62,733 nucleotides of DNA, taken from assembly GCA_003151625.1 (NCBI GenBank), contig PLYC01000021.1, positions 182,930-245,662 on the forward strand, written 5' to 3'. Shown in pieces: positions 3,196 through 62,733 of this stretch. Source of the stretch: Candidatus Doudnabacteria bacterium. GTDB lineage: Bacteria; Patescibacteriota; Doudnabacteria; UBA920. A program made the translations under genes and the position numbers. The notes beneath the pieces were generated by a model. That model made no database searches. It was not told where the DNA came from and saw nothing but the letters and a program-made list of their open reading frames with translations. Numbering within the stretch: position 1 is the stretch's first letter; each line of letters begins with the position of its first letter.

Positions 3196-3201
3196 TTTTT
3201 T

Positions 3202-6275: not shown

Positions 6276-6358
6276 TTTTTTAAAAGATATTAAAGGTATT
6301 GGTTGATATTGGGATATTGCTCTGCGGAGCCAATATCTAATAATATCTCAATATCTAT

Positions 6359-6823: not shown

Positions 6824-6942
6824 ATTTGTAGAGCTTGGTGGAAATTTTCTTGTCCTTTGAAGATTCCCGTAAAGGTTTGTCCAATTTAAAGTTAGCTTGT
6901 TATTCTAACCAAAAAACGCTCTCTTGGCAAGAGCGCTAAGAT

Positions 6943-7581: not shown

Positions 7582-7673
7582 ATAATATTTCTACTAAACA
7601 CTAAAGAATCTAAAAGTACTAAAGAGGAAATTTTTAGTTTAGTATTTTTAGCAAATTTAGTATTTAGTAGAGA

Positions 7674-9599: not shown

Positions 9600-9744
9600 A
9601 TTCCGCTGAGTGGTCGTTGATGAGTACGCTGATTGGTCGCTGAGCTGACAATGACATCTTAGCGTCTTATCAGCGTTGGTGTTTAGTTCAGCGTCTCTTC
9701 AGCGGTTAATAACTTATTGATTATACTCGTAAATCTTAATAAAA

Positions 9745-10497: not shown

Positions 10498-10509
10498 AAT
10501 TGCATATGT

Positions 10510-10562
10510 CCAATGGTGCCCATTGGTGTGAGAATATTCTTCTGACCAATGGGCACCATTGG
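10510..10562. repeat. Palindromic element family A, inverted-arm variant
   Basis: CCAATGGTGCCCATTGG-19 nt-CCAATGGGCACCATTGG. Confidence 0.7.
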
Positions 10563-15599: not shown

Positions 15600-16088
15600 T
15601 TAAAGTTTGGGTATTGTTTCGTATTTCGAATTTGCTTTGGCAACCGCCTGCTGTTCTTCCTCCGTGAGCTTGATTTCGCATTTTCCATTTTTAATTTTTT
15701 TGGTGTATATCCGGTTCTGTTCCCGACCGTACATTGAAGTAATTAGTACGCCTGTATTATGCTCGTCCAGTAAAGCTATGGAAAAACTAAAATTGCCGCC
15801 GCCGTCGTTAAACGGATTAAAACGCACCAGCCCCACCTTTTGTATGGCAAACGCCACTTGAGTTTTTAATTCGGTTAAGGATTGTCCCAAAATTGCTTCC
15901 TGTTCGCGGCTGTCCCGCAGTTCTTGTTTAAGGGAGTATATGACGCTTTCTAAACTTAAGGCTTTTTCGCCGGCAAAAAAAGTTTTTTTGAGTTTATTCA
16001 TGGCAGCAATTTGCCACAGGCAATATAGTCCCAATATAAAAGCCAGACCGGCTAAAATTAAAGTGATTGTTGATAATTGAAAGTTCAT
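15600..16088 (-). CDS. DUF4446-like membrane-anchored protein
   Basis: N-terminal TM, coiled coil, QKVGLVRFNPFNDGGGNFSFSIALLD...G...TS.YGR....Y.K.I..G. Confidence 0.8.
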   Translation of the reverse strand: MNFQLSTITLILAGLAFILGLYCLWQIAAMNKLKKTFFAGEKALSLESVIYSLKQELRDSREQEAILGQSLTELKTQVAFAIQKVGLVRFNPFNDGGGNFSFSIALLDEHNTGVLITSMYGREQNRIYTKKIKNGKCEIKLTEEEQQAVAKANSKYETIPKL

Positions 16089-16368
16089 AATTTGTGCACC
16101 TTAATTTATCTTGTGACCCTAAAGAATTCTGGCTTAATCCAAAGGCTTCTGCGATTAACGGTTTGCAAATAGTTTGGTTAAAATAATGTCACCCGAAACC
16201 ATTGTAGCATTAGTTACCGCTTGCATTCAAATGGGGCTAACTGGTATAATTTGGTAGATGTATTGATATTTCTCAATTTCAATCTATTTCCTAATTTCCT
16301 GATGAAAGTATAGAAATAGGAAAATTAAGAAATTGATGATAACTATAACAAATTTTAAACAATCAATT

Positions 16369-16578
16369 ATGTCCAAGAAGCACAAAAGAAGCGATTATCA
16401 ATTACAGCAGCAGCCAGGCAGTATGTCTCATGCGGCCGAATACCATATTATTAAATATGATTTAATAAAGGTTGTAGTTTTGAACCTAGTCTATTTAGCC
16501 GTTATTTTGTCTTTGTATTACGGCAACCAGCAATCGCATTTTTTGGATAATTGGTTTGCAAGACTGTTACATTTCTAA
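16369..16578 (+). CDS. Small hypothetical membrane protein
   Basis: ATG at 16369, one hydrophobic helix (IKVVVLNLVYLAVILSLYY). Confidence 0.55.
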   Translation: MSKKHKRSDYQLQQQPGSMSHAAEYHIIKYDLIKVVVLNLVYLAVILSLYYGNQQSHFLDNWFARLLHF

Positions 16579-16757
16579 CTCAGTAAAAAGTTATAGTTTG
16601 TTGAAATAGGTAGGGGGTATTAGATAAGGACATAGGGCTACTTAAAACCTAATACTTTTTTACCACACTACTCTCTATAACCTATAACTAAAAACCTTAA
16701 CCCCGCCTCTCGTGAGAGGCGGGGTTGTCATATGTGATATAAAGTGGATAATTTAGG

Positions 16758-16786
16758 TTGACTATTGCCTTAATTTATGATAAAAT
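16758..16786 (+). promoter_or_regulatory. Sigma70-type promoter of murA-mgtA
   Basis: TTGACT-17 nt-TAAAAT with an extended TG. Confidence 0.6.
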
Positions 16787-16816
16787 AGGAATACTTATAT
16801 CATATACGACAATATT

Positions 16817-18331
16817 ATGACAAAAGATCAACAACGTATAGGCCAGTTTATTGCGGAAGTCAGGCAACTAAAGGGTTTTAACCAGAGCGACTTTGCTAAG
16901 GCTTTAAAAACCAGTCAGTCGGCTGTGGCTAGAATGGAAAGTGGTCAGCAAAACCTGACTACGGAAATGCTGGCTAAAATTAGCGGAGTGCTAAACCATG
17001 AAATTATTACTTTGGCTGACAAGTCGGTAAATTTTAAAATTGAAGGCGGCAGAAAGTTATCCGGAAAAGTAGCGGTAAACACTTCCAAGAACGCGGCGGT
17101 TAGCCTTTTGTGCGCTTCTCTGCTTAACCAGGGTAAGACGGTTTTAAAAAATGTTCCTAAAATAGAGGAAGTCTACCGGGTAATAGAAGTTTTGGTGAGT
17201 ATTGGCATTTCGGTAAAGTGGCAGGGTACGGACGTGGAAATTCAGCCCGGGAAAAAGATAATTATAAGCAATATAGACAAAGAAGCCGCGGTGAAAACCC
17301 GAAGCGTGCTGATGCTTTTAGGGCCTTTGGCGCATCTCTTGCCCGCTTTTAGTCTGCCTTTGGCCGGAGGTTGCAAACTTGGCGAACGTACAGTAAGGCC
17401 TCATTTGTTTGCTTTGGAAAAATTGGGGGTAAACATAAAAACCCATCACGACCATTACGCGGTTTCCTCACACAAGCTTGCGCCGGCGGAGGTTGTGCTT
17501 TATGAAATGGGCGACACGGTTACGGAAAATGCGCTTATGGCCGCAGCCAAAATTAACGGGGTTACAACCATCAAGCTGGCCTCGTCCAATTATATGGTTC
17601 AGGATTTGTGCCATTTTTTACAGGGGTTGGGGGTAAAAATTGAAGGCATCGGCACTTCCACTTTAACTGTGCATGGAAAGACGCACATAAACCAAAAAAT
17701 CGTTTTTTTTCTGAGCGAGGATCCCATAGAAGCGATGCTGTTTTTGTCTTTGGCGGCAACCACTAATTCGTCTATAACCATTGAGCGCTGTCCCATAGAT
17801 TTTTTACTGCTTGAACTTTTAAAATTGGAGAAGATGGGTTTTAAATATAAAATTATTAGCCAATATCAAAGTCGCAACGGCGCTACCAGTTTGGTTGATA
17901 TAAAAACTTTTCCCTCCACGCTGGTTGCGCTGGAGGAGCAGATTCACCCTTTGCCTGGCGGTCCGGGGATAAATATAGATAACTTGCCCTTTTTTGTCCC
18001 CATTGCCACCCAGGCCAAAGGTATAACGTTGATTCATGACTGGGTTTATGAACATCGCGCGATTTACTATGTGGAATTGGAAAAACTCCGCGCCAATATT
18101 ATTATGGCCGATCCCCATCGGGTATACGTGGAAGGTCCAACCCAGCTTAAAGCCGGGGAAGTTATTTGCCCTCCTGCCCTGCGCCCCGCCGCAATAATCT
18201 TAATTGCCATGTTAGCCGCCAAAGGCACCTCCATTCTCCGAAACGTCTATTCCATAAACCGCGGCTACGAAAATCTCGTCCAGCGTCTCCAAAAATTAGG
18301 CGCGAAGATTGAGATGATACATAGTATGTAA
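16817..18331 (+). CDS. murA: UDP-N-acetylglucosamine 1-carboxyvinyltransferase with N-terminal XRE HTH
   Basis: HTH (NQSDFAKALKTSQSAVARMESG), then SKNAAV.LL, GGCKLG.R...PH catalytic Cys loop, DLRA-equivalent ALRPA. Confidence 0.9.
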   Translation: MTKDQQRIGQFIAEVRQLKGFNQSDFAKALKTSQSAVARMESGQQNLTTEMLAKISGVLNHEIITLADKSVNFKIEGGRKLSGKVAVNTSKNAAVSLLCASLLNQGKTVLKNVPKIEEVYRVIEVLVSIGISVKWQGTDVEIQPGKKIIISNIDKEAAVKTRSVLMLLGPLAHLLPAFSLPLAGGCKLGERTVRPHLFALEKLGVNIKTHHDHYAVSSHKLAPAEVVLYEMGDTVTENALMAAAKINGVTTIKLASSNYMVQDLCHFLQGLGVKIEGIGTSTLTVHGKTHINQKIVFFLSEDPIEAMLFLSLAATTNSSITIERCPIDFLLLELLKLEKMGFKYKIISQYQSRNGATSLVDIKTFPSTLVALEEQIHPLPGGPGINIDNLPFFVPIATQAKGITLIHDWVYEHRAIYYVELEKLRANIIMADPHRVYVEGPTQLKAGEVICPPALRPAAIILIAMLAAKGTSILRNVYSINRGYENLVQRLQKLGAKIEMIHSM

Positions 18332-18337
18332 TAAATT

Positions 18338-18366
18338 AGGCCTCGCTGACTGGCGAGGCTTTTTTC
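18338..18366 (+). terminator. Intrinsic terminator-like hairpin after murA
   Basis: AGGCCTCGC-TGACTG-GCGAGGCT followed by a T run. Confidence 0.55.
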
Positions 18367-18397
18367 TTTTTATGCTAAAATAAAGAAAAGTAAAACT

Positions 18398-20833
18398 ATG
18401 GCGGAAACAAATCAACAATTAGGGTTAAGTTCGGTGGAAGCTGCGAGGAGGATTAAACAGTACGGGCCGAATGCCATTGCGGAAAGCAGGCAGGTTTCGG
18501 GGCTTGTGGAGTTTTTGGTGCGGTTTAAAAACCCGCTGGTTTTAATATTGATTTTTGCGGCCGGGATTTCGGCTTTAACGGGCGACCCTGTTAGCGCGAC
18601 AATCATTATTTTAATAGTACTAATTAGCGTTTTGTTGGATTTTTTTAATACTTATAAGTCTCAGCGTGCGGCCGAAGAATTAAAGGAAAAAGTGCAGATT
18701 TTAGCCAGAGTTACCAGGGACGGTAAAATTCAGGAAATCCCCCTTTGGCAAATAGTGCCGGGCGATGTGGTGCATATGGAGGCTGGCGACCTGGTGCCGG
18801 CCGACGGCAAGGTTTTGGAAGGCAAAGATTTTTTTATAAACGAATCTTCCCTAACCGGTGAATCTTTTCCCGTGGAAAAAGAACCGGGCGCTCCCCTATT
18901 TTTGGGTACCAGCGGCGTGAGCGGAACGGCAGTAATGGAAGTGGAAATTACCGGACACAAAACCAAATATAGCCATATTGCGGAATCCATTGGCGGCGGA
19001 GAGCAACCTACGGAATTTGACCGCAATATTACAGATTTCAGTTATTTAATTATGAAGATTACTTTTGTTTTGGTAATCTTTATCTTTTTAATCAACGCTT
19101 TATTTAAAGCCGCCATACTGGAATCATTTTTATTCTCTGCGGCATTGGCTGTGGGGCTAACACCGGAACTTTTGCCCATGATAATTGCTCTTAATTTGTC
19201 CAAGGGCAGTTTAAATATGTCTAAGCACGGGGTAATAGTAAAAAAACTTTCCGCTATCCAAAATTTCGGTAGTATGGATGTCCTGTGTACGGATAAAACC
19301 GGCACGCTTACCGAAGACAGGATTGTGCTAATGAAGTATGTGGACGCCAAAGGCGAGACTGACGAGAAAATTTTCGACTACGCCTACATTTCCAGCACGT
19401 TCCGTAGCGGCTTCAACAATCCCCTCGATGCCGCCGTAAAAAATTATAAAAAAATTTCTACTTCTCATTTTTCCAAAATAGATGAAGTCCCGTTTGATTT
19501 TGAGCGCAGGCGTGACAGCGTGGTGGTTGAGTCATCGGCCGGGAAAGAAATAGTTTCCAAAGGCGCTCCGGAAGGGCTTTGGGAAATTTGCGACCATTAT
19601 AAAAGCACAAAGACCAAAATTACCCCGCATTTGTTAAAGGAGCTCGAAGAGGAATATAAATCCTTGAGCCAGGACGGGTTTAGGGTTTTGGGAGTGGCAA
19701 GTAAATCCATCGCGGAAAGCAAAAAAACTTATACCAAAGCTGATGAAAGCGGAATGATATTCCTGGGTTTTATAGCTTTTTTGGATCCACCCAAAAAAAC
19801 CGTGTCCGAAACATTAAAACTCCTTGAGAGTTACGGTATTACCATTAAAATTATTACCGGGGACAATGATTTAGTTACCAAAAAAATTGCCGATGAAATT
19901 CAGTTGCCCGTGGCAGGTATATTGCTGGGATCGGAAATTGAAAAAATGCACGACCATGAGTTGGCTTTAAAAGTGGAAAAGACCACAATTTTTTCCAGGG
20001 TAAATCCGGAGCAAAAAAAGCGTATTATTATTGCTCTGCAAAAAAATGGGCACACTGTTGGCTATATGGGCGACGGCATAAACGATGCGCCGAGCCTTAA
20101 AGCCGCGGACGTGGGCATTTCCGTGAACAACGCGGTCAACGTGGCTAAGGACTCCGCCGATCTTATTTTGATGCACAAAAGCCTGCACGATTTGGCCAAC
20201 GGAGTAATTCAGGGGCGCAGTACGTTTTCCAACACCATGAAGTATTTAATGATGGCTCTGTCCAGCAACTTCGGCAATATGTTTTCTATGGCCGGCGCTT
20301 CCCTGTTCTTTAATTTTTTACCCATGCTTCCCACACAAATTTTGCTGAACAATTTGTTGTATGATTCTTCGCAGTTTACCATTCCGTTGGACCAGGTTGA
20401 CATTGAAGACATTAAAAAACCGCGCAAAATGAATTTAAAATTCATTAAAGAATTTATGCTGGTCTTTGGTCCTTTGAGCAGCATATTTGATTTTGCCACT
20501 TTTTATTTGCTGTATTCGGTGTTCAAGTTTTCCGGCAGTCATTTTCAAACCGGATGGTTTATGGAAAGCCTGGCCACGCAGGCGCTGGTAATATTTATTA
20601 TTCGCACCAAAAAAATTCCATTTTTGCAAAGCAACCCCTCCAAGTATTTGGCGTTGTCGGTAGTTCTGGCCGTAGTACTTGGCTGGGTGGTAGCGCTTAG
20701 CGGCTTTGGCGCGGTGTTTAAGTTCACTTCCCTGCCGGTCTTGGCCTGTTTGGGAATAGTGCTGATTACTGCGGTGTACTTGGTGTTAGTCGAGTTTATC
20801 AAGCGGCGGTTTTACAGACGCTTCGCGGATTAA
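18398..20833 (+). CDS. mgtA: Mg2+-transporting P-type ATPase (P3B)
   Basis: TGES, PELLP, DKTGTLT, KGAPE, TGDN, MGDGINDAP, SSNFGNMFS. Confidence 0.9.
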   Translation: MAETNQQLGLSSVEAARRIKQYGPNAIAESRQVSGLVEFLVRFKNPLVLILIFAAGISALTGDPVSATIIILIVLISVLLDFFNTYKSQRAAEELKEKVQILARVTRDGKIQEIPLWQIVPGDVVHMEAGDLVPADGKVLEGKDFFINESSLTGESFPVEKEPGAPLFLGTSGVSGTAVMEVEITGHKTKYSHIAESIGGGEQPTEFDRNITDFSYLIMKITFVLVIFIFLINALFKAAILESFLFSAALAVGLTPELLPMIIALNLSKGSLNMSKHGVIVKKLSAIQNFGSMDVLCTDKTGTLTEDRIVLMKYVDAKGETDEKIFDYAYISSTFRSGFNNPLDAAVKNYKKISTSHFSKIDEVPFDFERRRDSVVVESSAGKEIVSKGAPEGLWEICDHYKSTKTKITPHLLKELEEEYKSLSQDGFRVLGVASKSIAESKKTYTKADESGMIFLGFIAFLDPPKKTVSETLKLLESYGITIKIITGDNDLVTKKIADEIQLPVAGILLGSEIEKMHDHELALKVEKTTIFSRVNPEQKKRIIIALQKNGHTVGYMGDGINDAPSLKAADVGISVNNAVNVAKDSADLILMHKSLHDLANGVIQGRSTFSNTMKYLMMALSSNFGNMFSMAGASLFFNFLPMLPTQILLNNLLYDSSQFTIPLDQVDIEDIKKPRKMNLKFIKEFMLVFGPLSSIFDFATFYLLYSVFKFSGSHFQTGWFMESLATQALVIFIIRTKKIPFLQSNPSKYLALSVVLAVVLGWVVALSGFGAVFKFTSLPVLACLGIVLITAVYLVLVEFIKRRFYRRFAD

Positions 20834-53677: not shown

Positions 53678-54367
53678 ATGATTTCCAAAGTTTTTTCTGC
53701 AGCGGTAATCGGCCTTGATGCTGAACTTATAGAAGTAGAAGCGGATGTCACCAATGGCCTTCCCGCGACAATTGTTGTGGGCTTGCCCGACACCGCTGTT
53801 CAGGAAAGCCGCGAGCGGGTTAAAACCGCGATAAAAAATTCCGGATGCAGTTATCCGCAAACAAGAGTCAGTGTGAATTTGGCTCCGGCGGACGTGCCTA
53901 AACTGGGCACGCATTTTGATTTGCCTATAGCTTTGGCTATAGTTATGGCTTCCGATCAGGTGGAATTGGATATGGCTGGCAAAATGTTCTTGGGGGAGCT
54001 GTCTTTAGATGGACAGTTGCGGCCGGTGTCGGGTATTTTGGCCGCGGCATTAAAGGCAAAAAATTTGGGCATTAAGGAAATTTTTGTGCCAAAACAAAAT
54101 GCCAAGGAAGCGGCTTTGGTTGACGGAATAAAAGTTTATCCTTTAAATGATTTAAAGCAACTACTAGGGCATTTAATGGGGTTGAGTCCGCTGGTTCGGC
54201 AGAAAACAGTAGTTGCCTCAGAAATTTTAAAAAATTTTCAACCTTCTTTGGACATGAAAGACGTGGCTGGCCAGGAATTGGCCAAGCGCGCTTTGGAAAT
54301 CGCGGCGGCCGGGAGTCACAACATTCTGGCATTGTGGTCCCAATCCAGCACGCCGCATCGGGCCTGA
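53678..54367 (+). pseudogene. comM: 5' part of the ComM/YifB Mg-chelatase-family ATPase, interrupted at ~54328
   Basis: V.VEAD...GLP...VGLPD.AVQESRERV, NLAPADVPK.G..FDLPIA, GELSLDG, D..DV.GQ..AKRALEIAAAGSHNIL, then homology stops before the Walker A. Confidence 0.9.
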
Positions 54368-54394
54368 TCCATTTGCCGACGAGCGTGGCGGGTG

Positions 54395-54569
54395 TATACC
54401 AGCAGAAACAGATCCGGGACCCCTGACTTCACCCCTCCTTTTGGAGCTTAACGGCCGTTTCCCATTGTCGATGACCACCATTGGGAATCGCATGAAGCAA
54501 GCGCAACTGTGGGAATTGAGGCAGCATCAGCGCGGCCCAAGCCACAACGGCCTTTTGTTCCTCGTGTTC
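54395..54569 (-). pseudogene. Phage VRR-NUC nuclease remnant (upstream in-frame stop plus a frameshift)
   Basis: Hand translation: EHEEQKAVVAWAALMLPQFPQLRLLHAIPNGGHRQWETAVKLQKEG, shift, VKSGVPDLFLLV. Confidence 0.7.
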
Positions 54570-54756
54570 TCAGCGAGCCAAGGCTCGCGGTTTTAGGGTC
54601 GGCGCCGCTGAAAAGCGCACGGCAACAGTTTGCTTGAAGAGCAAGAACAAAACTGCGGTAAAATGAACAACTTGGCCGCTATATCGATTCTGCCCAGCTC
54701 CGGCCGGGATCTTTGCTGGGATTGCGTGACGCATGACGATTTTCTCAGACCTTTGA

Positions 54757-55935
54757 ATGACAATGGCAAGCAGCCCAACCTTTCCGACCATTGAGGCGTC
54801 TGCACACCGCCCTGCGCTTCTGACGTGCAACTGGTCTGGAAGCGCGCTGAAGATTGAAACTACGCTCCATCAGCTCTCGCCGTATATTGGCAAACTGAAG
54901 TCGTCTATCGCCGGTTCCCTCATCTCGCAGTTCACGCAGGTAGGCGATGTCGTATACGATCCGTTCTCGGGTTCCGGGACGGTGGCGCTAGAGGCATGGG
55001 CAGCGGGGCGCAATGTTCTCGCCAATGATCTCAGTCCGTATGCGGCATTGCTGACGCGTGCCAAGCTCTTTCCGTACCGATCCCTCGAAGACGCGCTCAA
55101 TGACATCGAACGTCTATCAGGAGAAGCCGACCAAGAACAGGGCGACATTGATCTCAGGAGCGTCCCGGCTTGGGTGCGGCAGTTCTTCCACACAGAAACG
55201 CTAAGGGAAACGCTTGCATGGACGCGCGTTCTCAAACGACGCCGGCGCTGGTTCATGCTAGCTGCCCTCTTGGGAATTCTGCATCACCAGCGCCCTGGAT
55301 TCTTGTCATTTCCAAGCAGCCACACAGTACCATACCTCCGCGTCAAAGCGTTTCCTCGCGCGAAGTTTCCTGATCTCTACGAATACCGCTCCCTACGGGA
55401 TCGCCTGGAAGCCAAAGTCAAACGGGCCTTCCGCCGGGTGCCCGAGCTGGACTTCAATCTCGACCGGCGGTGCTTCTTGAAATCGGCGCATCTACTCACA
55501 CCGGAAGCGACGGTTGACGCCATTGTCACTAGCCCACCCTACATGAGGCAGCTTGACTACGCGCGAGACAATCGCCTCAGACTCTGGTTTCTCGGGATAG
55601 ATGACCACCGTTCGCTCGACAGGAAGATCTCTCCGCGCGAAGACGCCTTTTTAAAGCTGATGCGTCAATGCTTCATCAAATGGAAGACGATTCTTAGACC
55701 GCAAAAGTACTGCGTTCTCGTGATCGGTGATGCCAGCAGGCAGGTTGAAGACGGCAACTTGCCAGAGATAATCTCCCGGATCGCGACTCATGAAGTCGGC
55801 GGCTATTCTCACGTTCACGATTACACCGAAACGATTCCAAACGAACGCCGCGTCCGTCGCGGCCTCACGGGAAGCACTTCGGAAACCATCGTCATACTGC
55901 GCAACAACGCTTCGCGCGCAAAATCGACCGCCTAG
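54757..55935 (+). CDS. Amino-methyltransferase (N4-cytosine/N6-adenine DNA MTase, motif I before motif IV)
   Basis: PYIGK, VYDPFSGSGT SAM motif, NDLSP, IVTSPPY catalytic motif. Confidence 0.85.
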   Translation: MTMASSPTFPTIEASAHRPALLTCNWSGSALKIETTLHQLSPYIGKLKSSIAGSLISQFTQVGDVVYDPFSGSGTVALEAWAAGRNVLANDLSPYAALLTRAKLFPYRSLEDALNDIERLSGEADQEQGDIDLRSVPAWVRQFFHTETLRETLAWTRVLKRRRRWFMLAALLGILHHQRPGFLSFPSSHTVPYLRVKAFPRAKFPDLYEYRSLRDRLEAKVKRAFRRVPELDFNLDRRCFLKSAHLLTPEATVDAIVTSPPYMRQLDYARDNRLRLWFLGIDDHRSLDRKISPREDAFLKLMRQCFIKWKTILRPQKYCVLVIGDASRQVEDGNLPEIISRIATHEVGGYSHVHDYTETIPNERRVRRGLTGSTSETIVILRNNASRAKSTA

Positions 55936-55957
55936 CCAGAGAGAAACGGGAGGGCAT

Positions 55958-57043
55958 ATGCAGCAACTCTTCAACACGAGGAACTACAGCATCCGCGACT
56001 TTGAGGAATGGAACCAGCGAAATGAGCTCGTTCTCCAGCCGAAATTTCAGCGTCGCGACGTTTGGAGCGATAAGGCGCGCTCCTATCTGATGGACACGAT
56101 CATTCGTGGCAAGCCAATCCCCAAAATATACATGCGGCAAGATGTCAACCCCGAGACCCGTCGGACTCGGCGGGAGATTGTTGACGGGCAACAGCGGTTG
56201 CATACAGTCCTCAATTTCATCAAGGACGGCTTCAAAATCAGCAAGGCCCACCACGAGACGCTTGGCGGCAAGTCCTTTAGCGGACTGGACACGGCCACGC
56301 AGCGTGATATTTTGAAATATGAGTTCGTCGTCGATCTCTTGCAGGACATGCCAGACAACGAGGTCTACGATCTCTTTGCCCGGATTAATACCTATTCGGA
56401 GAAGCTCAAGCCCCAAGAGTTGCGCAACGCGAAGTGGTTTGGAGATTTCAAATCCTCCGTTTACCTGCTTTCCAAGGAGTTCTCGACTTTCTTCGTCGAG
56501 AACAAAATCTTCACGCCGAAGCTCATCCTTCGGATGGCAGAAGCCGAGTACATCTCTGAGCTGCTCTTGGCTATGCAAGAGGGAATCCGTCAAGGAGATA
56601 GGCGCACCCTCGATAATTGTTATAAAACATACGACGACGACTTCCCCTCGCGGAAGACTCACGAGAAGAGATTCAGAGAGACAATCGACACGATCAAGGG
56701 AATCTTCGGCGATGATTTGCCTCAATCAGAATTTTCAGCAATCCGTCTTCTCTACCCGCTATTCTGCGCGATTTACCACCTCAAATACGGTCTTCCTAGA
56801 CTGAGGTCCACGAGAAAAGTCTTTCGGGCCACCGACAATCCGAGGCTCAAATCCGCATTGGAAACTCTGGACGATCTGATCACGAGAATCAAGGAAGCCG
56901 AAGCAGATCACGAGGAAATATCGCTCTCCTCCGACGACCGCAAATTCTACGATGCATACAGTGTGCACTGGGTTCACGCTGACAAGCGGACAACATTGAC
57001 CGAGCATATCTGCAAGAAGCTCACCAAGGCCCTGGACGAGTGA
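55958..57043 (+). CDS. DUF262 (GmrS/ParB-Srx-like NTPase) protein
   Basis: LQPKFQRRDVW, G.PIP, EIVDGQQRL, LFARIN...L.PQELRNA; GGAGGG Shine-Dalgarno before the ATG at 55958. Confidence 0.88.
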   Translation: MQQLFNTRNYSIRDFEEWNQRNELVLQPKFQRRDVWSDKARSYLMDTIIRGKPIPKIYMRQDVNPETRRTRREIVDGQQRLHTVLNFIKDGFKISKAHHETLGGKSFSGLDTATQRDILKYEFVVDLLQDMPDNEVYDLFARINTYSEKLKPQELRNAKWFGDFKSSVYLLSKEFSTFFVENKIFTPKLILRMAEAEYISELLLAMQEGIRQGDRRTLDNCYKTYDDDFPSRKTHEKRFRETIDTIKGIFGDDLPQSEFSAIRLLYPLFCAIYHLKYGLPRLRSTRKVFRATDNPRLKSALETLDDLITRIKEAEADHEEISLSSDDRKFYDAYSVHWVHADKRTTLTEHICKKLTKALDE

Positions 57044-57053
57044 TGGGTGAACC

Positions 57054-57689
57054 GTGGCGCGCCGGCTTATAACGGTCATAACGGAGTTTTCGCGATGCGT
57101 GCAGGACGCCAGAACTCTTGCGGCCGATGCATACGATTGGTCCCTAGCGTCGGCGGGTACACGTCCCCGGATTTCCGCGAAGCGATGCGATTCGATTACC
57201 GAATTGGCATTCTTCCGGGTTTTCAGCGGCTGGGAAGCATTCTTGGAAGAAACGTTCATTCTCTATTTGCTTGGCCAGCAGGCGCCACGCGGTCGTAAGA
57301 CCCAAAGATATGGATTCCCGCCCGGCGAAAGGGCCGCGTATGAGTGGGTCGCAGAGGGTCGCGATTATGCCAAGTGGACCGCTACCGAGGTTCGCAAGAG
57401 AGCCGAGCGTTTATTCCGTGACGGAAAGCCATTCAGCCCCGTCATCAGCAGTCACCATAATCTTTTGTTTCAGGTTAAGACAATCAGAAACGCAATCGCA
57501 CATGACTCGCTGGATGCGCGCCAGAAATTCGAGGAGCTGGTACGCAATGAGCTGCAGGCTCTTCCTCCAAATACTACCATCGGCAGCTTTCTCCTCAAGA
57601 TCAAGCCCAGATCCAATCCCCCTGTTTCATTCTTAGAGTTCTATCTCGACAAGATTGAAATCGCCGCCCGAAAGATTGTCCCTATTTGA
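57054..57689 (+). CDS. HEPN-domain putative RNase
   Basis: N-terminal W-E-x-F-L-E helix and the R-N-A-I-A-H (Rx4H) motif. Confidence 0.78.
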   Translation: MARRLITVITEFSRCVQDARTLAADAYDWSLASAGTRPRISAKRCDSITELAFFRVFSGWEAFLEETFILYLLGQQAPRGRKTQRYGFPPGERAAYEWVAEGRDYAKWTATEVRKRAERLFRDGKPFSPVISSHHNLLFQVKTIRNAIAHDSLDARQKFEELVRNELQALPPNTTIGSFLLKIKPRSNPPVSFLEFYLDKIEIAARKIVPI

Positions 57690-57700
57690 AGAGCCTCCAT

Positions 57701-57742
57701 ATGCGCGTCAGCGAGGCCCTGCATCTGCGAGTCTCTTCGTAG
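57701..57742 (+). pseudogene. Possible tyrosine-recombinase box I fragment
   Basis: MRVSEALHLRV resembles the G(L/M)RxSExxxL motif; only 13 codons. Confidence 0.3.
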
Positions 57743-58015
57743 CTGGCCCAGTTCAATATACCCCATGGGAGCGCCCCGGGCAGACGCGGGCGGGGTGTGC
57801 CGCCGCAGCGACCTCGACGAACCGGATGTGGCGCCGATCAGCCCGCAGTAGAGCTTGACCGGCCACTTCTACGAAAGCTTTCACGAGGAGTTGGGGCCGA
57901 CTGGACCGACCGTCTCGGCGGCCTGGAGCGCCCTTCGGTGAAGCCGAGACGTTGAACTTGAGATCTCGGAACGAGGTATGATTGAAAACTGAGAACTTTT
58001 CGCCGGCTTTCTGCC

Positions 58016-58279
58016 ATGCTTGTTGGTCCGATGGCCCGACTCTGTGAAAGAGGCTTGGCCAGGGATGGGCGATGTGTGCTGGTAGTCGGGGAGTCAGTCA
58101 GTCGGAGCCAAACCGTGCATCCAGCGCAACACCCTATCGCGATCTTTGAGGCTCACGCGCCATCTTTGGTCCTTGAGAACATGATTGTTGATTCGGTCCC
58201 CGACGTTCGAAGGGCGCACCGTGACTACCGAGGCGTGAAGACGGAGCAAATAATTGTGTTCCGAAATGCTCAAGATTGA
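58016..58279 (+). pseudogene. C-terminal remnant of a second methyltransferase paralog
   Basis: CVLVVGE...DSVPDVRRAHRDYRGVKTEQIIVFRN aligns with CVLVIGD...ETIPNERRVRRGLTGSTSETIVILRN of 54757; ATGA overlap with the kinase gene. Confidence 0.65.
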
Positions 58280-60978
58280 TGAAACGACGCCGCAATTCCA
58301 CGCAATCCGATTTCACTTGGCTCGCGAGCCTGGAGGGCCAGCAGGTCGGCGACTATGAACTCGACAACTACATCGGCAGCGGAAAGATCGGTTACGTTTA
58401 TCGAGCTCATCGTCGTGACATTCCCGACATCGAACATGCTGTCAAGTTAATACCTAATCTTAAGAAAGGATGGGAAACGGAACTAAAGAAAGTTGCGAAG
58501 TTATCGAAGGTTTCTAACGTTGTTCATTTCCATCATCTCGGCAAAGCCACTGTGTCATTTGGAGAGCACTCTGCCTCTGTTCAATACACTGTTTGGGACT
58601 ATATTCATCCCGGACGCAATCTGAATTCGATCTTGAATAAGCCGACCTTCCTTCCGGTAAGCTTCGTGGTTGCAATTGTGGAAACAGTTCTTCGAGTTCT
58701 ACATGCATGCCAGAGCCAAGGCATCCCCCGCCACGGGGACCTCCACCCAGGTAACATCCTCATAGGTGAGAAAGACGAATCTCAGCTTGATTCAAGTCTT
58801 CGGCCTGTTGAGCCGGTTTACGTATCCGATTTCGGATACGGTGCGACCTGCGGCGGACCGAAACCCAAAGACGACTATCATGGCCTCGCGTCGATCACCG
58901 ATGCGTTGACAAAAAAGATAGACTGGGCGACAGCCAATGGCAGCGACAAGCAGCTTTTGGAAGGGACGGTCTCCGTGCTCCGGAAGGTACTGTCGGAAGA
59001 TACCCAGAGCGAGCGAACGGTTCCCAAGGACATCCTTGAAGCCCTGTTGAGGGTCCGAAGTCAGGCAGGCCGGGTCAGGGAAGGCTCCCAACAGCCGCAG
59101 CCGCCGATCGGGCCGCAGGAACCCCGAAGATTCTCAGTCGGCTCCTATCAAGTCAGCGAGATGTTGGGTGATGACTGGGGGCTCTGGCAGTCGCTATTTG
59201 TCCCAACGGTTCCCGCCAGATCTCGAATTCTTGAACGTGACATTACCTCCGTAGTCACTGGACCACGGGGTTGTGGGAAGACAATGCTCTTCCGGCGGCT
59301 GAGTGAGCGGCTAATTGTCGAGTGCGGGCCAATTGACGACACCCCGACCTCCTTTGTTGGGATCTACGTCAACGCCAATGATATTTCAGATGCCTTTTCG
59401 GTCTTTTCGGACGCGCCGGATGAAAGCGCAATCGCCGATCTCTTTTGCTATACCCACCTCTGCATTTTGTCCGATTTTCTCGCGGTGGAGGCGGCACAGG
59501 CGCGGCTCGGGGGGGTACAGTCCTCGCCGGAGCTCATCCAACTCCTGACGGACTGGTTAGGCAGGCCCATGCATACCGCACCGGTCATTGCTGAGGAGAA
59601 CCAACTGGAACGGCATCGTGCCGTGCTGGAGCAAATCAAGAATTCCTTCATCACTCGGGCTGGAATCGATGGCTTCCCTGGTCGATCAGATTTCGGGCAT
59701 CATGCGTGGCTCAAGCGCTTGGTCCCGTTGATGCGGGGAGCTTGCCCATGGATGGAACAGAGAATAGTCTTCTTTTTCGTTGATGACTATACAACGCCCC
59801 GTCTTTCACTAAGCATGCAACGCGCGCTCAATCGAGTCTTATTCCAGCGTTCCCATGAGTTCGTTTTCAAGATTGCGACAGAAGCGGCCACCACTTTCTT
59901 GTCCGAGGACCTCACAGGCAAGGCGTTGCAGGACGGCGACGACTACAGGCTTGTTGATTTGGGTGAAGAAGCACTGTTCATGACTGACGCCGAGCGCGGC
60001 GCATTTCTCAGGGAGGTATTTGCGAAGCGCCTTGCTTCCGATCAACGAATCGCAATGGAGGGCCGGACCCTGGCCGGACTTCTCGGCTCGTTGGGCAAAT
60101 CGAAAACTGCGTTTGCGCGGCTGTTGCGTTCCGAAGAGCGGGAACCGCCTGAAGCAACCAAGGCCGGATCACTTCGGGGAGCAACGAAAAGAAGGGCACT
60201 CTACCACGGTCAGGATGTCTTTTGCTGTCTATGGTCTGGTGACACCCGAATCATGATTCAGCTGATGCAGGACGTTGTAGATGCCGGCACGAACGCTGAC
60301 AAGGGCGTTCTGACGAAACGGGTCGGCGAAGAAGATCAAGATCGAGCTTTCAGAAATCGAGGTAGCCAATGGCTGGACATGCAGACGCGCAACCAACCAA
60401 GCGACCCAAAGCTCGTGAAATCACTGCTTCAGATCCCCGATGCTTTGAAGGGCGTCCGCCAACTGGCTGGCGGCTCGTACGGAAGCCACCTGAAGGCCGT
60501 TGTGGAGGCTTTTAAGGATGCCGCCCGCCTGGAGCTATTGGGACCAGTCTACATAATGAAGGAAAACGGTCGGGCGCGTGAAGTTCCAAAGATGGCTTTC
60601 AGAATTGAAATAACAGATGAGTTCAGGCTCGACACCCTGGCGACGGAAATCTATCGCGACTTGATTCGATACGGGCTGTTCATGCGCGATGCACGTGGAA
60701 AGAGTGTACGCGGCGCGATGGTCCCCCGCTTATACCTCCGTCGTCTGCTTTTGCCATACTGCGTGCTCGCACTGTCAAAACGAGACAGCGTCGCGATGTC
60801 CTGCGAGTGGTTCCGTAGCCTCTTGTTGCATCCCGACAGATTCATGGAGTCCTGGCAGAAGCACCGGCAGCCCGAGCTCGCCGTCAGCCGCGACCAGACA
60901 CGCTTGGACTTCGATGGCGCTGAGCAACGCGCCCTCGACCTTGATCCGAAGTACGACGACCTGGGAGATGAGGATTGA
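58276..60978 (+). CDS. Ser/Thr-type protein kinase fused to an ORC/CDC6-like P-loop ATPase
   Basis: IGSGKIGYVY, AVK, HGDLHPGNIL, SDFG; GPRGCGKT Walker A, FFFVDDY Walker B; C-terminal helical/wHTH-like region (LIRYGLF...PRLYLRRLLLPY). Confidence 0.8.
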   Translation: MMKRRRNSTQSDFTWLASLEGQQVGDYELDNYIGSGKIGYVYRAHRRDIPDIEHAVKLIPNLKKGWETELKKVAKLSKVSNVVHFHHLGKATVSFGEHSASVQYTVWDYIHPGRNLNSILNKPTFLPVSFVVAIVETVLRVLHACQSQGIPRHGDLHPGNILIGEKDESQLDSSLRPVEPVYVSDFGYGATCGGPKPKDDYHGLASITDALTKKIDWATANGSDKQLLEGTVSVLRKVLSEDTQSERTVPKDILEALLRVRSQAGRVREGSQQPQPPIGPQEPRRFSVGSYQVSEMLGDDWGLWQSLFVPTVPARSRILERDITSVVTGPRGCGKTMLFRRLSERLIVECGPIDDTPTSFVGIYVNANDISDAFSVFSDAPDESAIADLFCYTHLCILSDFLAVEAAQARLGGVQSSPELIQLLTDWLGRPMHTAPVIAEENQLERHRAVLEQIKNSFITRAGIDGFPGRSDFGHHAWLKRLVPLMRGACPWMEQRIVFFFVDDYTTPRLSLSMQRALNRVLFQRSHEFVFKIATEAATTFLSEDLTGKALQDGDDYRLVDLGEEALFMTDAERGAFLREVFAKRLASDQRIAMEGRTLAGLLGSLGKSKTAFARLLRSEEREPPEATKAGSLRGATKRRALYHGQDVFCCLWSGDTRIMIQLMQDVVDAGTNADKGVLTKRVGEEDQDRAFRNRGSQWLDMQTRNQPSDPKLVKSLLQIPDALKGVRQLAGGSYGSHLKAVVEAFKDAARLELLGPVYIMKENGRAREVPKMAFRIEITDEFRLDTLATEIYRDLIRYGLFMRDARGKSVRGAMVPRLYLRRLLLPYCVLALSKRDSVAMSCEWFRSLLLHPDRFMESWQKHRQPELAVSRDQTRLDFDGAEQRALDLDPKYDDLGDED

Positions 60979-62099
60979 CGCTCTTGGACAACATTATGTT
61001 GAACATCCGAACGGAAGACGGAATTGACCTCCCGCGAGTCCTTGCCTGCCCCGAAAGATTGGATGTGGATCACACCGCGATTATCGCGGCCGCGGGGTTC
61101 GAAGACCGAACATTGGCGCTCGCGCCTATGCTTAGTCAGGCAGATTGTGCGCTTGGTCTAGTTGTCTACAAAGATTGGGGGAAGGAAAACCGGGTAGAAG
61201 CCCTACTTAAATCATATGCTACGACGGGCATTGGGCCATTAGCCAGGAAGTCTCTAGACTATGACCGATACGACCCCGACAGTCTCGGAAACGCCCTGAG
61301 AGATTGGTTGAAGGAGGTCGGTCACCCGCGGGTTCTTTTGGATATCTCAACGATGTCGCGGCTTGCCATTATGGTGGTTCTCGACGTCTGCCGTGAGCTG
61401 GAAAAGTGTGTCACCGTCTTCTATGCCGAGGCCGAGGAATACGGCCCTTCGGAAGCGGAGTATGTACGGGCGAAGGCTGGAGTTTACCCCCGGCCGAGTA
61501 TCCAGGTTTATAGCGGCGTCGGCGGCGTTGTCCGCTCGCGGCGTCTGTCCAGCGTTGCGCTTCAGGGAGAGCCGACGGCTTTGATAGCATTTATGTCGAT
61601 GAATGAAGGGTTGACTCAGGCGCTGATCAACTGCATCTCTCCAAGTCGTCTATTTTTGGTCAACGGACAACCTCCTCTCCACTCGTGGCGGGAGCGTGCG
61701 ACGGCTTGGATTCACGAAGAGTTGCGACTTGAATGGCCCGAGCGAGATAATCCTTGCCTAATGACAGAGGACGGAATTGCTTTACCCGAGCGAGCAACGT
61801 CCACGCTTGACTATACGGAGACTGTCAACGTGCTGCTCCATCTCTACTGGAGTAATGCTGCCGAGTACCGGGTCGTTCTGGCTCCGACTGGTAGTAAGAT
61901 GCAGACGGTGGGGTGTTACGTGGCAAAGGGAGTCCACACCGACATTCACGTTGAGTACCCGACTCCGGAGAGCTTCTTGCCCACCTACAGCAAGGGCATT
62001 GGAAAGCGCTGGATGGTTGATTTCGGCTTGCTCGATTCGCTGCTGCGCGGCTTGCGATCTAGGATCATGACGGATCGCTTGATGGTGCTTCGTGCGTGA
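60975..62099 (+). CDS. Conserved hypothetical with two CARF-like Rossmann halves
   Basis: 4-nt overlap with the kinase stop; AGFEDRT, VLLDISTMSR, VFYAEAEEY, VVLAPTGSKMQT, VEYP...YSKGIG. Confidence 0.6.
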   Translation: MTLLDNIMLNIRTEDGIDLPRVLACPERLDVDHTAIIAAAGFEDRTLALAPMLSQADCALGLVVYKDWGKENRVEALLKSYATTGIGPLARKSLDYDRYDPDSLGNALRDWLKEVGHPRVLLDISTMSRLAIMVVLDVCRELEKCVTVFYAEAEEYGPSEAEYVRAKAGVYPRPSIQVYSGVGGVVRSRRLSSVALQGEPTALIAFMSMNEGLTQALINCISPSRLFLVNGQPPLHSWRERATAWIHEELRLEWPERDNPCLMTEDGIALPERATSTLDYTETVNVLLHLYWSNAAEYRVVLAPTGSKMQTVGCYVAKGVHTDIHVEYPTPESFLPTYSKGIGKRWMVDFGLLDSLLRGLRSRIMTDRLMVLRA

Positions 62100-62295
62100 A
62101 GTGTGACAGCCGAGCGACTTGGGCCAGTGGGGTGTGGCGCTATATTGGAGAAGTCGCCCTAAAGGTCGAGGGGCGTTCAGGAACATCAGCCCTCTGAAGT
62201 CGCGGTCACGTTAATTGTGAGTATTTGATGAACACCAGTAATTCGCTCGTCGCTATCCAGGACGCGTAAAAGAAATAAGTCAAGCGATTGGCGAT

Positions 62296-62422
62296 TGCCC
62301 ATCGATGCGGCAGGAGCTCGTCAGGCCTGGCAATTAGTATAGTCGGCGATCCGTCCCAGCGCGGCGCGGAACCAGGCGAAGGGATCGATCTTGACGAGTT
62401 CGCGGGAGGTGACCAAGCTGCG
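62296..62422 (-). mobile_element. IS66-family transposase C-terminal remnant (frameshifted)
   Basis: RSLVTSRELVKIDPFAWFRAALGRIADY, shift, RPDELLPHRWA, matching the IS66 C-terminal DPxxWL.D.L.RI...I.ELLP..W pattern. Confidence 0.7.
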
Positions 62423-62698
62423 GAGCTGTGCGTAGACAGAAGCGCATTACAGCATGAAATCAACGGTTTACCGGAGCCTATAAGAGTTCACCAGCTAAGA
62501 CGGCGATGAGTCGCCCGTGGAGCGAGTCGCAGCGGTCACGATGGAGGAGGCCATTGCCTGCGAAGGCGGTACGCCGATTTTGAAATCGTCCGGGTTGAGT
62601 ATATGGGGGTTGGTCCGTTTGCTTTCTGCATCCTCGGCCGACTGAGCGGCGCCGTTCGGTTGCCCGGCTCGGTAGGCTTTGGATCAGCGCAGGCGGAC

Positions 62699-62733
62699 CT
62701 CTGACATTCCGCCACTGTGGCGGAATGTCAGAG
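62699..62733. repeat. Perfect 17-bp-arm hairpin ending at the last base of the window
   Basis: CTCTGACATTCCGCCAC-T-GTGGCGGAATGTCAGAG. Confidence 0.8.

What the first reader, a model, noticed from the sequence alone, without database searches (positions are those of the whole stretch)
54757..62099. Candidate undescribed anti-phage locus: MTase - DUF262 - HEPN - (MTase remnant) - kinase/ATPase - tandem CARF-like
Seen: six co-oriented ORFs with short gaps or overlaps (22 nt, 10 nt, ATGA, TTGA), apart from ~330 bp of debris after the HEPN gene, bounded by phage and IS66 remnants. Established: amino-MTases, DUF262/GmrS NTPases, HEPN RNases, Ser/Thr kinases, STAND/ORC-like ATPases and CARF folds are each recurrent in prokaryotic immunity. 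This combination lacks PglZ, a restriction endonuclease subunit, and any nucleotide cyclase, so it does not fit BREX/Pgl, classical RM, CBASS or type III CRISPR as I know them. Inference: a modification-based self mark guarded by a DUF262-gated HEPN abortive RNase, plus a kinase-ATPase checkpoint.
Basis: partly seen in the sequence, partly recalled or inferred. Interest (0 to 1): 0.86.

Follow-up and report, generated by a model that had tools for sequence, protein, structure and literature searches.

The report
Two methylase-led defence cassettes fused
The six genes are real, but they are two separately mobile, already catalogued anti-phage-type cassettes (methylase + DUF262 sensor + HEPN RNase; methylase + kinase/ATPase + CARF sensor) joined on a foreign island, where the second cassette has lost its own methylase and probably relies on the first one.

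Summary
Observation confirmed: six co-oriented ORFs sit at 54757-62099, and all named motifs are present.

The stretch belongs to a 56% GC island inserted in comM of a 43% GC, 1.5 Mb genome. The other comM half lies on a second contig, so this is not a chimera.

The locus is not one undescribed system. It is two three-gene cassettes built on the same SPPY amino-methylase family.

- **Cassette 1: MTase - DUF262/ParB-like NTPase - HEPN.** It recurs alone: DUF262 stands upstream of the HEPN gene in 59/59 metagenome groups, the MTase in 29/33. The operon type was predicted in 2013. Its DUF262+HEPN pairing resembles the validated PD-T4-2.
- **Cassette 2: MTase - Hanks kinase/ORC-Cdc6-like AAA+ - 2xCARF.** It recurs alone in about 48 species and also occurs as one fused protein. 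That fusion was described in 2014 and is catalogued as CARF6.

In the window only an 82-residue C-terminal remnant of cassette 2's methylase survives.

New here:
- The cassettes lie adjacent in about 9% of cassette-1 loci, in tandem or convergent.
- No composite keeps a second methylase (0/4, against 20/21 stand-alone).
- Methylases have swapped between the two effector pairs repeatedly.

This points to a shared methyl mark. It is a new variant of known kinds, of moderate interest, and experimentally untested.

The parts
53678..54328 (+). 5' fragment of comM (ChlI + start of the Mg_chelatase domain). It is broken after ...AAAGSHNIL, just before the Walker A motif, and marks the left junction of the island.
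   Evidence: Pfam ChlI 4e-45. The GC content jumps from 40% to 56% here. The 3' part of comM is on G000 contig C18, also abutting high-GC DNA. Relatives carry an intact comM frame of 503-530 aa.
54329..54756 (.). Left end of the island, with no recognisable gene.
   Evidence: No Pfam hit for its ORFs. There are only short tblastx matches to regions upstream of homologous methylases. The first ~13 nt after the junction resemble the same junction in relative G012.
54757..55935 (+). MTase1: an amino-methyltransferase with motif I (DPFSGSGT) placed before motif IV (TSPPY). It is the self-marking enzyme of cassette 1.
   Evidence: PF01555 2e-12, PF02086 4e-6, PADLOC MTase_II 3e-25. DPFxGxG, SPPY and HHQRPGFLSxPSSHxVPYLR are near-invariant to invariant (>=55 of 58) in 58 relatives. 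It is 73-83% identical to the methylases of other trios.
55955..57043 (+). DUF262 (ParB-like NTPase) with an NsnA-type C-terminal domain; the predicted DNA sensor.
   Evidence: PF03235 1e-22; PADLOC NsnA 2e-38, PD-T4-2_A 5e-19. A homologue lies directly upstream of the HEPN gene in 59 of 59 metagenome groups.
57054..57689 (+). HEPN-fold protein with an RNxxxH motif (R145, N146, H150); the predicted RNase effector.
   Evidence: The motif is invariant in 33 homologues. 26 of 33 hit PF18735 HEPN_RiboL-PSP. The model has pLDDT 93 and its top PDB hits are HEPN toxins, at probability 0.94 but E 0.3.
57690..58030 (.). Debris left by the deletion of most of MTase2.
   Evidence: No protein homology to MTase2 or to any fetched locus. 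One 46-nt DNA match to the equivalent spacer of L011 and L089.
58031..58279 (+). C-terminal 82-codon remnant of MTase2, the decayed methylase of cassette 2.
   Evidence: 68% identical to residues 327-408 of the intact MTase of L015 (E 1e-37). 75% identical to that of L150.
58276..60978 (+). Hanks-type Ser/Thr kinase fused to an ORC/Cdc6-like AAA+ ATPase (P-loop GPRGCGKT), followed by a highly conserved C-terminal region.
   Evidence: PF00069 9e-10, PF24389 4e-26, PADLOC CARF6--CARF_STK_AAA 5e-22. K57, N160, DFG, the P-loop and D503/D504 are invariant and D155 is nearly invariant (>=90%) in 34 homologues. The kinase part matches solved kinases.
60975..62099 (+). Protein with two CARF-like Rossmannoid lobes (about residues 34-151 and 201-331); the predicted ligand sensor.
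   Evidence: PADLOC CARF6--CARF_CARF_CARF 4e-12. The model has pLDDT 90 and matches Csm6, Csa3, Cam1 and Csx1. A homologue lies directly downstream of the kinase/AAA gene in every locus with sequence there, and is fused to it in 4 loci.
62100..62733 (.). Unassigned DNA up to the contig end.
   Evidence: No Pfam hit and no tblastx hit. The last 35 nt are an inverted copy of themselves, probably an assembly artefact.

Best explanation
The stretch is a composite defence locus on a foreign island integrated in comM. Two paralogous three-gene cassettes, each led by a methylase, stand in tandem.

**Cassette 1: MTase1 - DUF262/ParB-like NTPase - HEPN**
- Inferred: the methylase marks the cell's own DNA.
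- Inferred: the DUF262 NTPase reads DNA and its modification state, as DUF262 does in GmrSD, BrxU and SspE.
- Inferred: on meeting unmarked DNA, or when interfered with, it releases the HEPN RNase and stops translation (abortive-type immunity).

**Cassette 2: [MTase2] - kinase/ORC-like AAA+ - 2xCARF**
- Inferred: the ORC/Cdc6-like ATPase binds DNA.
- Inferred: the 2xCARF partner binds a small nucleotide-type ligand.
- Inferred: the Hanks kinase is the output and phosphorylates host or phage proteins.

**How the two relate in this window**
- Shown: MTase2 has decayed to an 82-codon stub.
- Inferred: MTase1, from the same family (46% identical to an intact MTase2), supplies the mark, or the DNA-recognition subunit, for both effector pairs.

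**Shown by comparative data**
- Each cassette is autonomous.
- The kinase/AAA and CARF genes are fused in some lineages.
- The composite recurs, and each time the second methylase is lost.
- Methylases have been exchanged between the two effector pairs.

Every biochemical step remains inference.
For: **The island is real**
- Both comM halves abut high-GC DNA on two contigs.
- Relatives have an intact comM, and one has another insert at the same codon.

**Cassette 1 recurs alone**
- Seen in L005, L007 and L009.
- In 64 metagenome groups, DUF262 is upstream in 59/59 and an MTase1-family gene in 29/33.

**Cassette 2 recurs alone**
- 48 loci from many phyla carry the CARF gene directly downstream.
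- Single-ORF fusions occur in L045, L048, L051 and L056.
- A same-family MTase is adjacent in 20 of 21 stand-alone close relatives.
- The closest relative (85% identical, L150) has it intact.

**The remnant** matches intact MTase2 proteins.

**Composite loci**
- They are the window, L011/L089 (tandem), L013/14 and L065-68 (convergent). None has a second intact MTase.
- L011 keeps a different, N-terminal stub.
- Fisher p is 4e-4 counting four events and 0.012 counting two.

**Hand-over of the methylase**
- L030 carries a trio-clade MTase, a 70-aa DUF262 stub, then the kinase/AAA and CARF genes.
- On the MTase tree, well-supported branches force at least 9 (trio label) and 5 (kinase label) partner changes.

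**Catalytic residues** are conserved in all five intact proteins.

**Literature:**
Against: - Composites are a minority: 3 of 35 cassette-1 groups with room downstream, and none of the 48 species-representative kinase loci.
- The independent origins of the composite may be only two, one tandem and one convergent. That weakens the statistics.
- Many distant kinase/AAA-CARF loci have no methylase at all and carry DruA instead. The pair therefore does not strictly need a methylase.
- Some trios use an unrelated methylase (L009).
- The window HEPN protein itself hits no Pfam HEPN model at E below 0.1, and no family member hits PADLOC PD-T4-2_B.
- The substrate of the methylase (DNA, RNA or protein) was not determined.
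- Nothing has been tested experimentally for this family.
Confidence: 0.6

Rival explanations
1. The two cassettes are independent defence systems that sit side by side only because defence genes cluster on mobile islands. The decay of MTase2 is incidental, and cassette 2 is either dead or does not need a methylase.
For: - Both cassettes are usually found apart.
- Neighbouring loci hold other defence genes: BREX in L011, GmrSD in L009, and a TIR protein on the other island contig.
- Distant kinase/AAA-CARF loci lack a methylase.
Against: - 20 of 21 stand-alone close relatives keep a methylase, while 0 of 4 composites keep a second one.
- The kinase/AAA and CARF genes of the window are full-length with all invariant residues, so they are not decaying.
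- The L030 intermediate and the repeated methylase swaps point to a link.
- Adjacency reaches about 9% with a partner found in only 48 of 185,579 species genomes.
Confidence: 0.27
2. The cassettes act mainly as addiction (post-segregational killing) modules that stabilise the island or the conjugative element or phage that carries them, like many restriction-modification systems. They are not primarily phage defence.
For: The cassettes ride on mobile elements:
- a comM island here;
- conjugative elements with TrwC, a coupling protein and ArdC (L013, L015, L066);
- a phage contig with a capsid gene (L150);
- next to a terminase (L007).

A toxin-like effector paired with a protective methylase fits the logic of addiction.
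Against: - The architecture-level relative PD-T4-2 protects against T4 in its native strain.
- Addiction and defence are not exclusive.
- No stability data exist.
Confidence: 0.08
3. The high-GC stretch is an assembly or binning chimera and does not belong to this genome.
For: - The GC content jumps abruptly at 54328.
- The proteins are 75-90% identical to ones from Acidobacteriota-rich soil and peat metagenomes.
- The stretch runs to a contig end.
Against: - The two comM halves are each joined to non-comM high-GC DNA on two contigs of the same genome.
- A same-genus genome has another insert at the same codon with similar junction sequences.
- Read mapping could not be done.
Confidence: 0.03

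Closest known systems
HEPN - ParB/DUF262 - DNA methylase operons (RiboL-PSP-HEPN and MAE_28990 families; Anantharaman, Makarova, Burroughs, Koonin, Aravind 2013, PMC3710099)
   Same: The same three components in one operon. The HEPN has the Rx4H motif. Most family members hit PF18735 RiboL-PSP-HEPN.
   Different: That description is computational only, and it does not mention a link to a kinase/AAA-CARF pair. Only 1 of 33 members touches the MAE_28990 model, which is the family for which the methylase link was stated.
PD-T4-2 (Vassallo et al. 2022, PMC9519451): a two-gene DUF262 + HEPN system that protects E. coli against T4
   Same: A DUF262 protein (PADLOC PD-T4-2_A 5e-19) paired with a PF18735-type HEPN protein.
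   Different: The HEPN family here does not hit the PD-T4-2_B model. Here a methylase is nearly always attached. The DUF262 protein scores higher with NsnA of Menshen (2e-38).
Kinase - AAA+ (arginine in the P-loop) - CARF proteins (Makarova et al. 2014, PMC4012209; PADLOC-DB models 'CARF6--CARF_STK_AAA' and 'CARF6--CARF_CARF_CARF', which I take from memory to come from the Makarova et al. 2020 census)
   Same: Kinase, AAA+ with GPRGCGKT, and CARF domains. Both window proteins hit the CARF6 models. Fused relatives of 1122-1226 aa exist.
   Different: Here the architecture is split into two genes. No N-terminal Zn ribbon or C-terminal wHTH was detected. The links to an SPPY methylase, thymidylate synthase or DruA are not mentioned in the text I could read; the 2020 paper was not available.
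Menshen (NsnABC; Li et al. 2025, PMC12065111)
   Same: The DUF262 protein is NsnA-like, with ParB-DUF262 plus a C-terminal DNA-binding-type domain.
   Different: There is no NsnB ABC ATPase and no NsnC. A methylase and a HEPN protein stand in their place.
Pgl / BREX type 2 (PglW kinase with a degenerate ORC/Cdc6-like domain, PglX methylase, PglY, PglZ; bioRxiv 10.1101/2025.10.09.681413, also published as PMC12839542)
   Same: A methylase working with a Ser/Thr kinase joined to an ORC/Cdc6-like module.
   Different: No PglZ, PglY or NERD nuclease. The ATPase here has intact Walker motifs. A CARF partner is present.

Membership tests
HEPN-ParB-methylase operon (Anantharaman 2013) | HEPN protein with a conserved Rx4-6H motif | tested here: met
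   RNAIAH is present. R145, N146 and H150 are invariant in 33 homologues. 26 of 33 hit PF18735. The fold hits are to HEPN toxins.
HEPN-ParB-methylase operon (Anantharaman 2013) | Adjacent ParB/DUF262 gene and DNA methylase gene | tested here: met
   Both are present in the window. DUF262 is upstream in 59/59 groups and an MTase1-family gene in 29/33.
PD-T4-2 | Component A: DUF262/GmrSD_N protein | tested here: met
   PADLOC PD-T4-2_A 4.7e-19; PF03235 1.2e-22.
PD-T4-2 | Component B matches the PD-T4-2_B model | tested here: not met
   Neither the window protein nor any of its 32 aligned homologues hits PD-T4-2_B at E <= 1.
PD-T4-2 | Protection against phage | not testable with these tools
   This needs cloning and plaque assays.
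Menshen (NsnABC) | NsnA-like DUF262 protein | tested here: met
   PADLOC NsnA 2e-38.
Menshen (NsnABC) | NsnB ABC ATPase and NsnC effector downstream | tested here: not met
   The downstream gene is a HEPN protein and the upstream gene a methylase. No AAA_15/DUF3696 protein is present.
CARF6 kinase-AAA-CARF family | Ser/Thr kinase domain with catalytic residues | tested here: met
   PF00069 9e-10. K57, N160 and D185 are invariant; D155 is >=90% conserved.
CARF6 kinase-AAA-CARF family | AAA+ ATPase with an arginine inside the P-loop | tested here: met
   GPRGCGKT is invariant in 34 homologues. This matches the description in PMC4012209.
CARF6 kinase-AAA-CARF family | CARF domain(s) linked to the kinase/AAA part | tested here: met
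   PADLOC CARF6 models. Fold matches to Csm6, Csa3 and Cam1. Always adjacent, and fused in 4 loci.
CARF6 kinase-AAA-CARF family | N-terminal Zn ribbon and C-terminal wHTH, as in the 2014 description | tested here: inconclusive
   No such Pfam hit. The kinase starts at about residue 13, and the CARF protein ends in one long helix. The conserved C-terminal 300 aa of the kinase/AAA protein were not modelled.
Type III CRISPR / CBASS signalling | A nucleotide cyclase (Cas10 or CD-NTase) that makes the CARF ligand | tested here: not met
   None is in the window. None appears among the top 25 of 90 matched families for 117 neighbour ORFs of 21 related loci.
BREX / Pgl | PglZ phosphatase and BrxC/PglY ATPase | tested here: not met
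   Absent from the window. The BREX genes near L011 form a separate, oppositely oriented block.
MADS | MAD6 kinase equivalog | tested here: not met
   NF047741 scores 37.9 bits against a cut-off of 460.
Classical type II restriction-modification | A cognate DNA endonuclease | tested here: inconclusive
   One PADLOC REase_II model hits the DUF262 protein (9e-16). No nuclease domain (DUF1524, PD-(D/E)xK, HNH) was detected.

The most novel reading that the evidence does not exclude
The two cassettes would form a two-tier relay that needs no cyclase. One methylase defines self. When the DUF262 sensor meets unmarked DNA it fires the HEPN RNase. [quoted passage not shown] That protein would then switch on the ORC-like ATPase/kinase as a second, phosphorylation-based shutdown.

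A parallel islet noted elsewhere in this scan fits the idea but does not test it. There, a MORC-HEPN protein and a CARF-kinase giant sit around one cytosine methylase.
Probability: 0.12. Interest if true: 0.85.

Novelty: new variant of a known kind. Interest (0 to 1): 0.55.

Why it matters
Both cassettes are widespread: the CARF partner alone has 2585 representatives of 50%-identity clusters. Neither has a known mechanism.

The comparative pattern found here has three elements:
- the same methylase family serves two unrelated effector pairs;
- the methylase is handed over between the pairs;
- it is lost when redundant.

This gives a concrete, cheap experiment: cross-complementation of the methylases. 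It also suggests that the methylase is the common recognition or self-marking part, as Mod is in type III systems. If so, a protein kinase and an RNase would both be 'restriction' outputs keyed to DNA methylation.

The further partners of the kinase/AAA-CARF pair are thymidylate synthase in 13 of 22 close relatives and DruA in distant ones. They offer a way into the unknown CARF ligand and into the function of DruA.

Tried and rejected
**Rejected after testing**
- Menshen: rejected as a family for the DUF262 gene, because NsnB and NsnC are absent.
- MADS: far below the cut-off.
- BREX/Pgl: no PglZ.
- CBASS / type III CRISPR: no cyclase in the window, and none in the listed top 25 families from 117 neighbour ORFs of relatives.
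- Chimeric contig: rejected because both comM halves are present and a relative has an insert at the same codon.

**Checks that led nowhere**
- 'Phage and IS66 remnants' at the borders: no family hit.
- Promoter/terminator scan: promoter-like sites were within about one SD of the shuffled mean and terminator-like sites were fewer than in shuffles.
- PDB sequence search: nothing for the DUF262 protein; only motif-level hits for the methylase.
- HEPN family in IMG/VR: no hit.

**Could not be done**
- The 2020 CARF census (PMC7498327) could not be read. Its treatment of CARF6 is inferred only from PADLOC model names.

**A slip of my own**
My first guesses at which neighbour ORFs were ThyA were wrong. 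They were corrected by clustering.
Full report
**1. What is in the sequence**

Six co-oriented ORFs lie at 54757-62099.

- **Methylase, 54757-55935.** Pfam and PADLOC call it an N6/N4 amino-methylase with motifs DPFSGSGT and TSPPY.
- **DUF262/GmrSD_N protein, 55955-57043.** It carries QRxxxW, DGQQR and FxxxN. Its best PADLOC hit is NsnA (2e-38), then PD-T4-2_A (5e-19).
- **Unannotated 211-aa protein with RNAIAH, 57054-57689.**
- **87-aa ORF, 58016-58279.**
- **900-aa Hanks kinase + ORC-CDC6-like AAA+ protein, 58276-60978.** It hits PADLOC CARF6--CARF_STK_AAA at 5e-22.
- **374-aa protein, 60975-62099.** It hits PADLOC CARF6--CARF_CARF_CARF at 4e-12.

Two calls rest on more than one line of evidence:

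- **HEPN.** The RNxxxH motif is invariant in 33 homologues. 26 of 33 homologues hit PF18735 HEPN_RiboL-PSP, and the other hits are further HEPN families. A confident model (pLDDT 93) has HEPN toxins as its best, if weak, PDB matches.
- **CARF.** A pLDDT-90 model shows two Rossmannoid lobes. It matches Csm6, Csa3, Cam1, Csx1 and the ring nuclease Sso2081 at probability 0.93-1.0.

**2. Setting**

The window is the end of contig C5 of a 1.5-Mb, 43% GC genome in 34 contigs.

- GC rises from about 40% to 56% at about 54328, inside comM. The gene breaks after AAAGSHNIL, just before its Walker A motif.
- The rest of comM is on contig C18, again followed by high-GC DNA to the contig end. That DNA encodes a TIR protein, a HAD hydrolase and a PGK-like protein.
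- Same-genus and same-order relatives have an intact comM frame of 503-530 aa.
- One relative, G012, has a 3.1-kb insert at the same codon with similar junction sequences. It carries an OLD-family ATPase and a recombinase-like remnant.

The island is therefore genuinely integrated and is at least about 14.7 kb long. Its middle, and any integrase, are missing from the assembly. The claimed phage and IS66 remnants at the borders were not confirmed.

**3. Cassette 1 is autonomous**

The HEPN protein has at least 136 homologues.

- In three long contigs the order MTase-DUF262-HEPN is kept with unrelated neighbours.
- In an unbiased sample of 80 metagenome loci (64 groups), DUF262 lies directly upstream in 59 of 59 groups with room for it.
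- An MTase1-family gene lies upstream of that in 29 of 33 groups. A few trios use another methylase family (L009).

Prior literature already covers this kind:

- Anantharaman et al. [quoted passage not shown]
- DUF262 + PF18735 HEPN is the architecture of PD-T4-2, which protects E. coli against T4 in its native strain.
- The HEPN family here does not hit the PD-T4-2_B model. The match is therefore at the level of architecture, not orthology.
- Menshen is excluded because NsnB and NsnC are absent.

**4. Cassette 2 is autonomous too, and normally has its own methylase**

The kinase/AAA protein has hundreds of full-length homologues. A scan of one genome per species gave 48 loci from Acidobacteriota, Gemmatimonadota, Latescibacterota, Pseudomonadota, Spirochaetota, Planctomycetota, a methanogen and others.

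- The CARF gene follows directly in every locus that has sequence there.
- In four loci the two genes are one ORF of 1122-1226 aa. That fusion is what Makarova et al. [quoted passage not shown] The window has GPRGCGKT, invariant in the family.
- In 20 of 21 stand-alone close relatives a methylase of the same family as MTase1 lies next to the pair, usually with overlapping stop and start.
- The window's 87-aa ORF is the C-terminal 82 residues of such a methylase. It is 68% identical to that of L015 (E 1e-37). It is 75% identical to that of L150, the closest relative, which is 85% identical in the kinase and sits on a predicted phage contig with a capsid gene.

**5. The link between the cassettes**

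Composite loci exist in several forms:

- the window and L011/L089, in tandem, with a kinase 78% identical;
- L013/14 and L065-68, convergent, on conjugative-element backgrounds;
- L071 and L141, which show a convergent CARF gene at a contig end.

Among cassette-1 groups with at least 1.3 kb downstream, 3 of 35 are composite.

No composite has a second intact methylase:

- The window keeps a C-terminal stub.
- L011 keeps a different, N-terminal stub.
- The convergent loci have none.
- This is 0/4 against 20/21. Fisher p is 4e-4, or 0.012 if only two origins are counted.

Two further observations point the same way:

- L030 looks like a later stage. It has a trio-clade methylase, a 70-aa DUF262 stub, then kinase/AAA and CARF.
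- On the methylase tree, well-supported branches force at least 9 (trio label) and 5 (kinase label) partner changes. Six kinase-linked methylases sit inside the trio clade, and the four composites are not monophyletic.

Across 58 methylases, motif I and a long middle segment (HHQRPGFLSxPSSHxVPYLR) are conserved in at least 55 sequences, and SPPY is invariant. This hints at a common substrate. I read all of this as one interchangeable methylase family serving two effector pairs, with redundancy removed when they meet.

The caveats are real:

- Composites are rare.
- Distant kinase/AAA-CARF loci have no methylase.
- Some contigs labelled 'trio only' are short.

**6. Mechanism (inference)**

- **Cassette 1.** A methyl mark defines self, a ParB-like NTPase senses DNA, and a HEPN RNase is the output. 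This is the PrrC-like logic proposed in 2013.
- **Cassette 2.** An ORC-like ATPase sits on DNA, the 2xCARF protein senses a ligand, and the kinase is the output.
- **No cyclase.** None is in the window. None is among the top 25 families listed (of 90 matched) for 117 neighbour ORFs of 21 relatives. The CARF ligand is therefore unlikely to be made by a locus-encoded Cas10 or CD-NTase.
- **A speculative link.** HEPN cleavage products with cyclic phosphate ends might feed the CARF sensor. This borrows the RtcR analogy discussed for CoCoNuTs. I give it about 12%.

**7. Other partners of the kinase/AAA-CARF pair**

- A thymidylate synthase follows the CARF gene in 13 of 22 close relatives. It is ThyX in 11 and ThyA in 2.
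- In the distant clade the neighbour is DruA.
- The CARF family has 2585 cluster representatives at E <= 1e-3.

**8. Verdict**

The parts are known kinds: one has a validated architectural relative, the other is catalogued but untested. The new points are the recurring fusion, the loss and hand-over of the methylase, and the additional partners. I class it as a new variant of a known kind, interest 0.55.

Limits:
- The 2020 CARF paper could not be read.
- No experiment exists for this family.

Noticed in passing
window 53678-54367; L004 (G000 C18:20000-29870) 2701-3582: comM is split by a high-GC island of at least ~14.7 kb, which lies on two contig ends. The C18 part carries a TIR-domain protein with an alpha/alpha-toroid-like tail, an unannotated 400-aa ORF, a HAD hydrolase and a 586-aa phosphoglycerate-kinase-like protein. 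No integrase is visible in the assembled parts.
   Followed up: partly
L148 (G012 C1:164500-184400) about 16000-19000: A same-genus genome has a 3.1-kb insert at the same comM codon, with similar junction sequences. It carries an OLD-family ATPase (AAA_15 + OLD TOPRIM) and a coiled-coil ORF resembling the C-terminal part of a large serine recombinase. In this genus the site looks like an integration hot spot for defence cargo.
   Followed up: partly
L013 11839-12825; L021-L027, L031-L033 just after the CARF gene; L019 6066-6857; L020 13823-14617: A thymidylate synthase sits directly after the CARF gene in 13 of 22 close relatives of cassette 2. It is ThyX in 11 loci and the non-homologous ThyA in 2. 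The window's own sub-clade lacks it. This suggests a link to pyrimidine nucleotide metabolism.
   Followed up: partly
L047, L049, L050, L052, L055, L058, L060, L062 next to the kinase/AAA-CARF pair: In the distant clade (22-24% identity) the conserved neighbour is DruA (DUF4338, Druantia) rather than a methylase. Several of these loci also have an unannotated ORF of about 190 aa upstream.
   Followed up: partly
L045 9953-13588, L048 5138-8818, L051 9374-12742, L056 2441-6100: Kinase, AAA+ and CARF are fused in one ORF of 1122-1226 aa. In L045 a beta-class N6_N4 methylase of another family follows.
   Followed up: partly
L150 (IMG/VR contig) 5341-10518: The closest relative of cassette 2 (85% identity) has an intact methylase and lies on a predicted phage contig that has a major capsid gene.
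   Followed up: partly
L009 and L032 (same 3,776,135-bp Acidobacteriota chromosome): The one stand-alone close relative without a methylase (L032) lies about 35 kb from a DUF262-HEPN trio. That trio uses an unrelated 338-aa methylase and sits next to a full-length GmrSD.
   Followed up: no
window 62699-62733: The last 35 nt of the contig are an inverted copy of themselves. This is probably an assembler artefact at the contig end.
   Followed up: no
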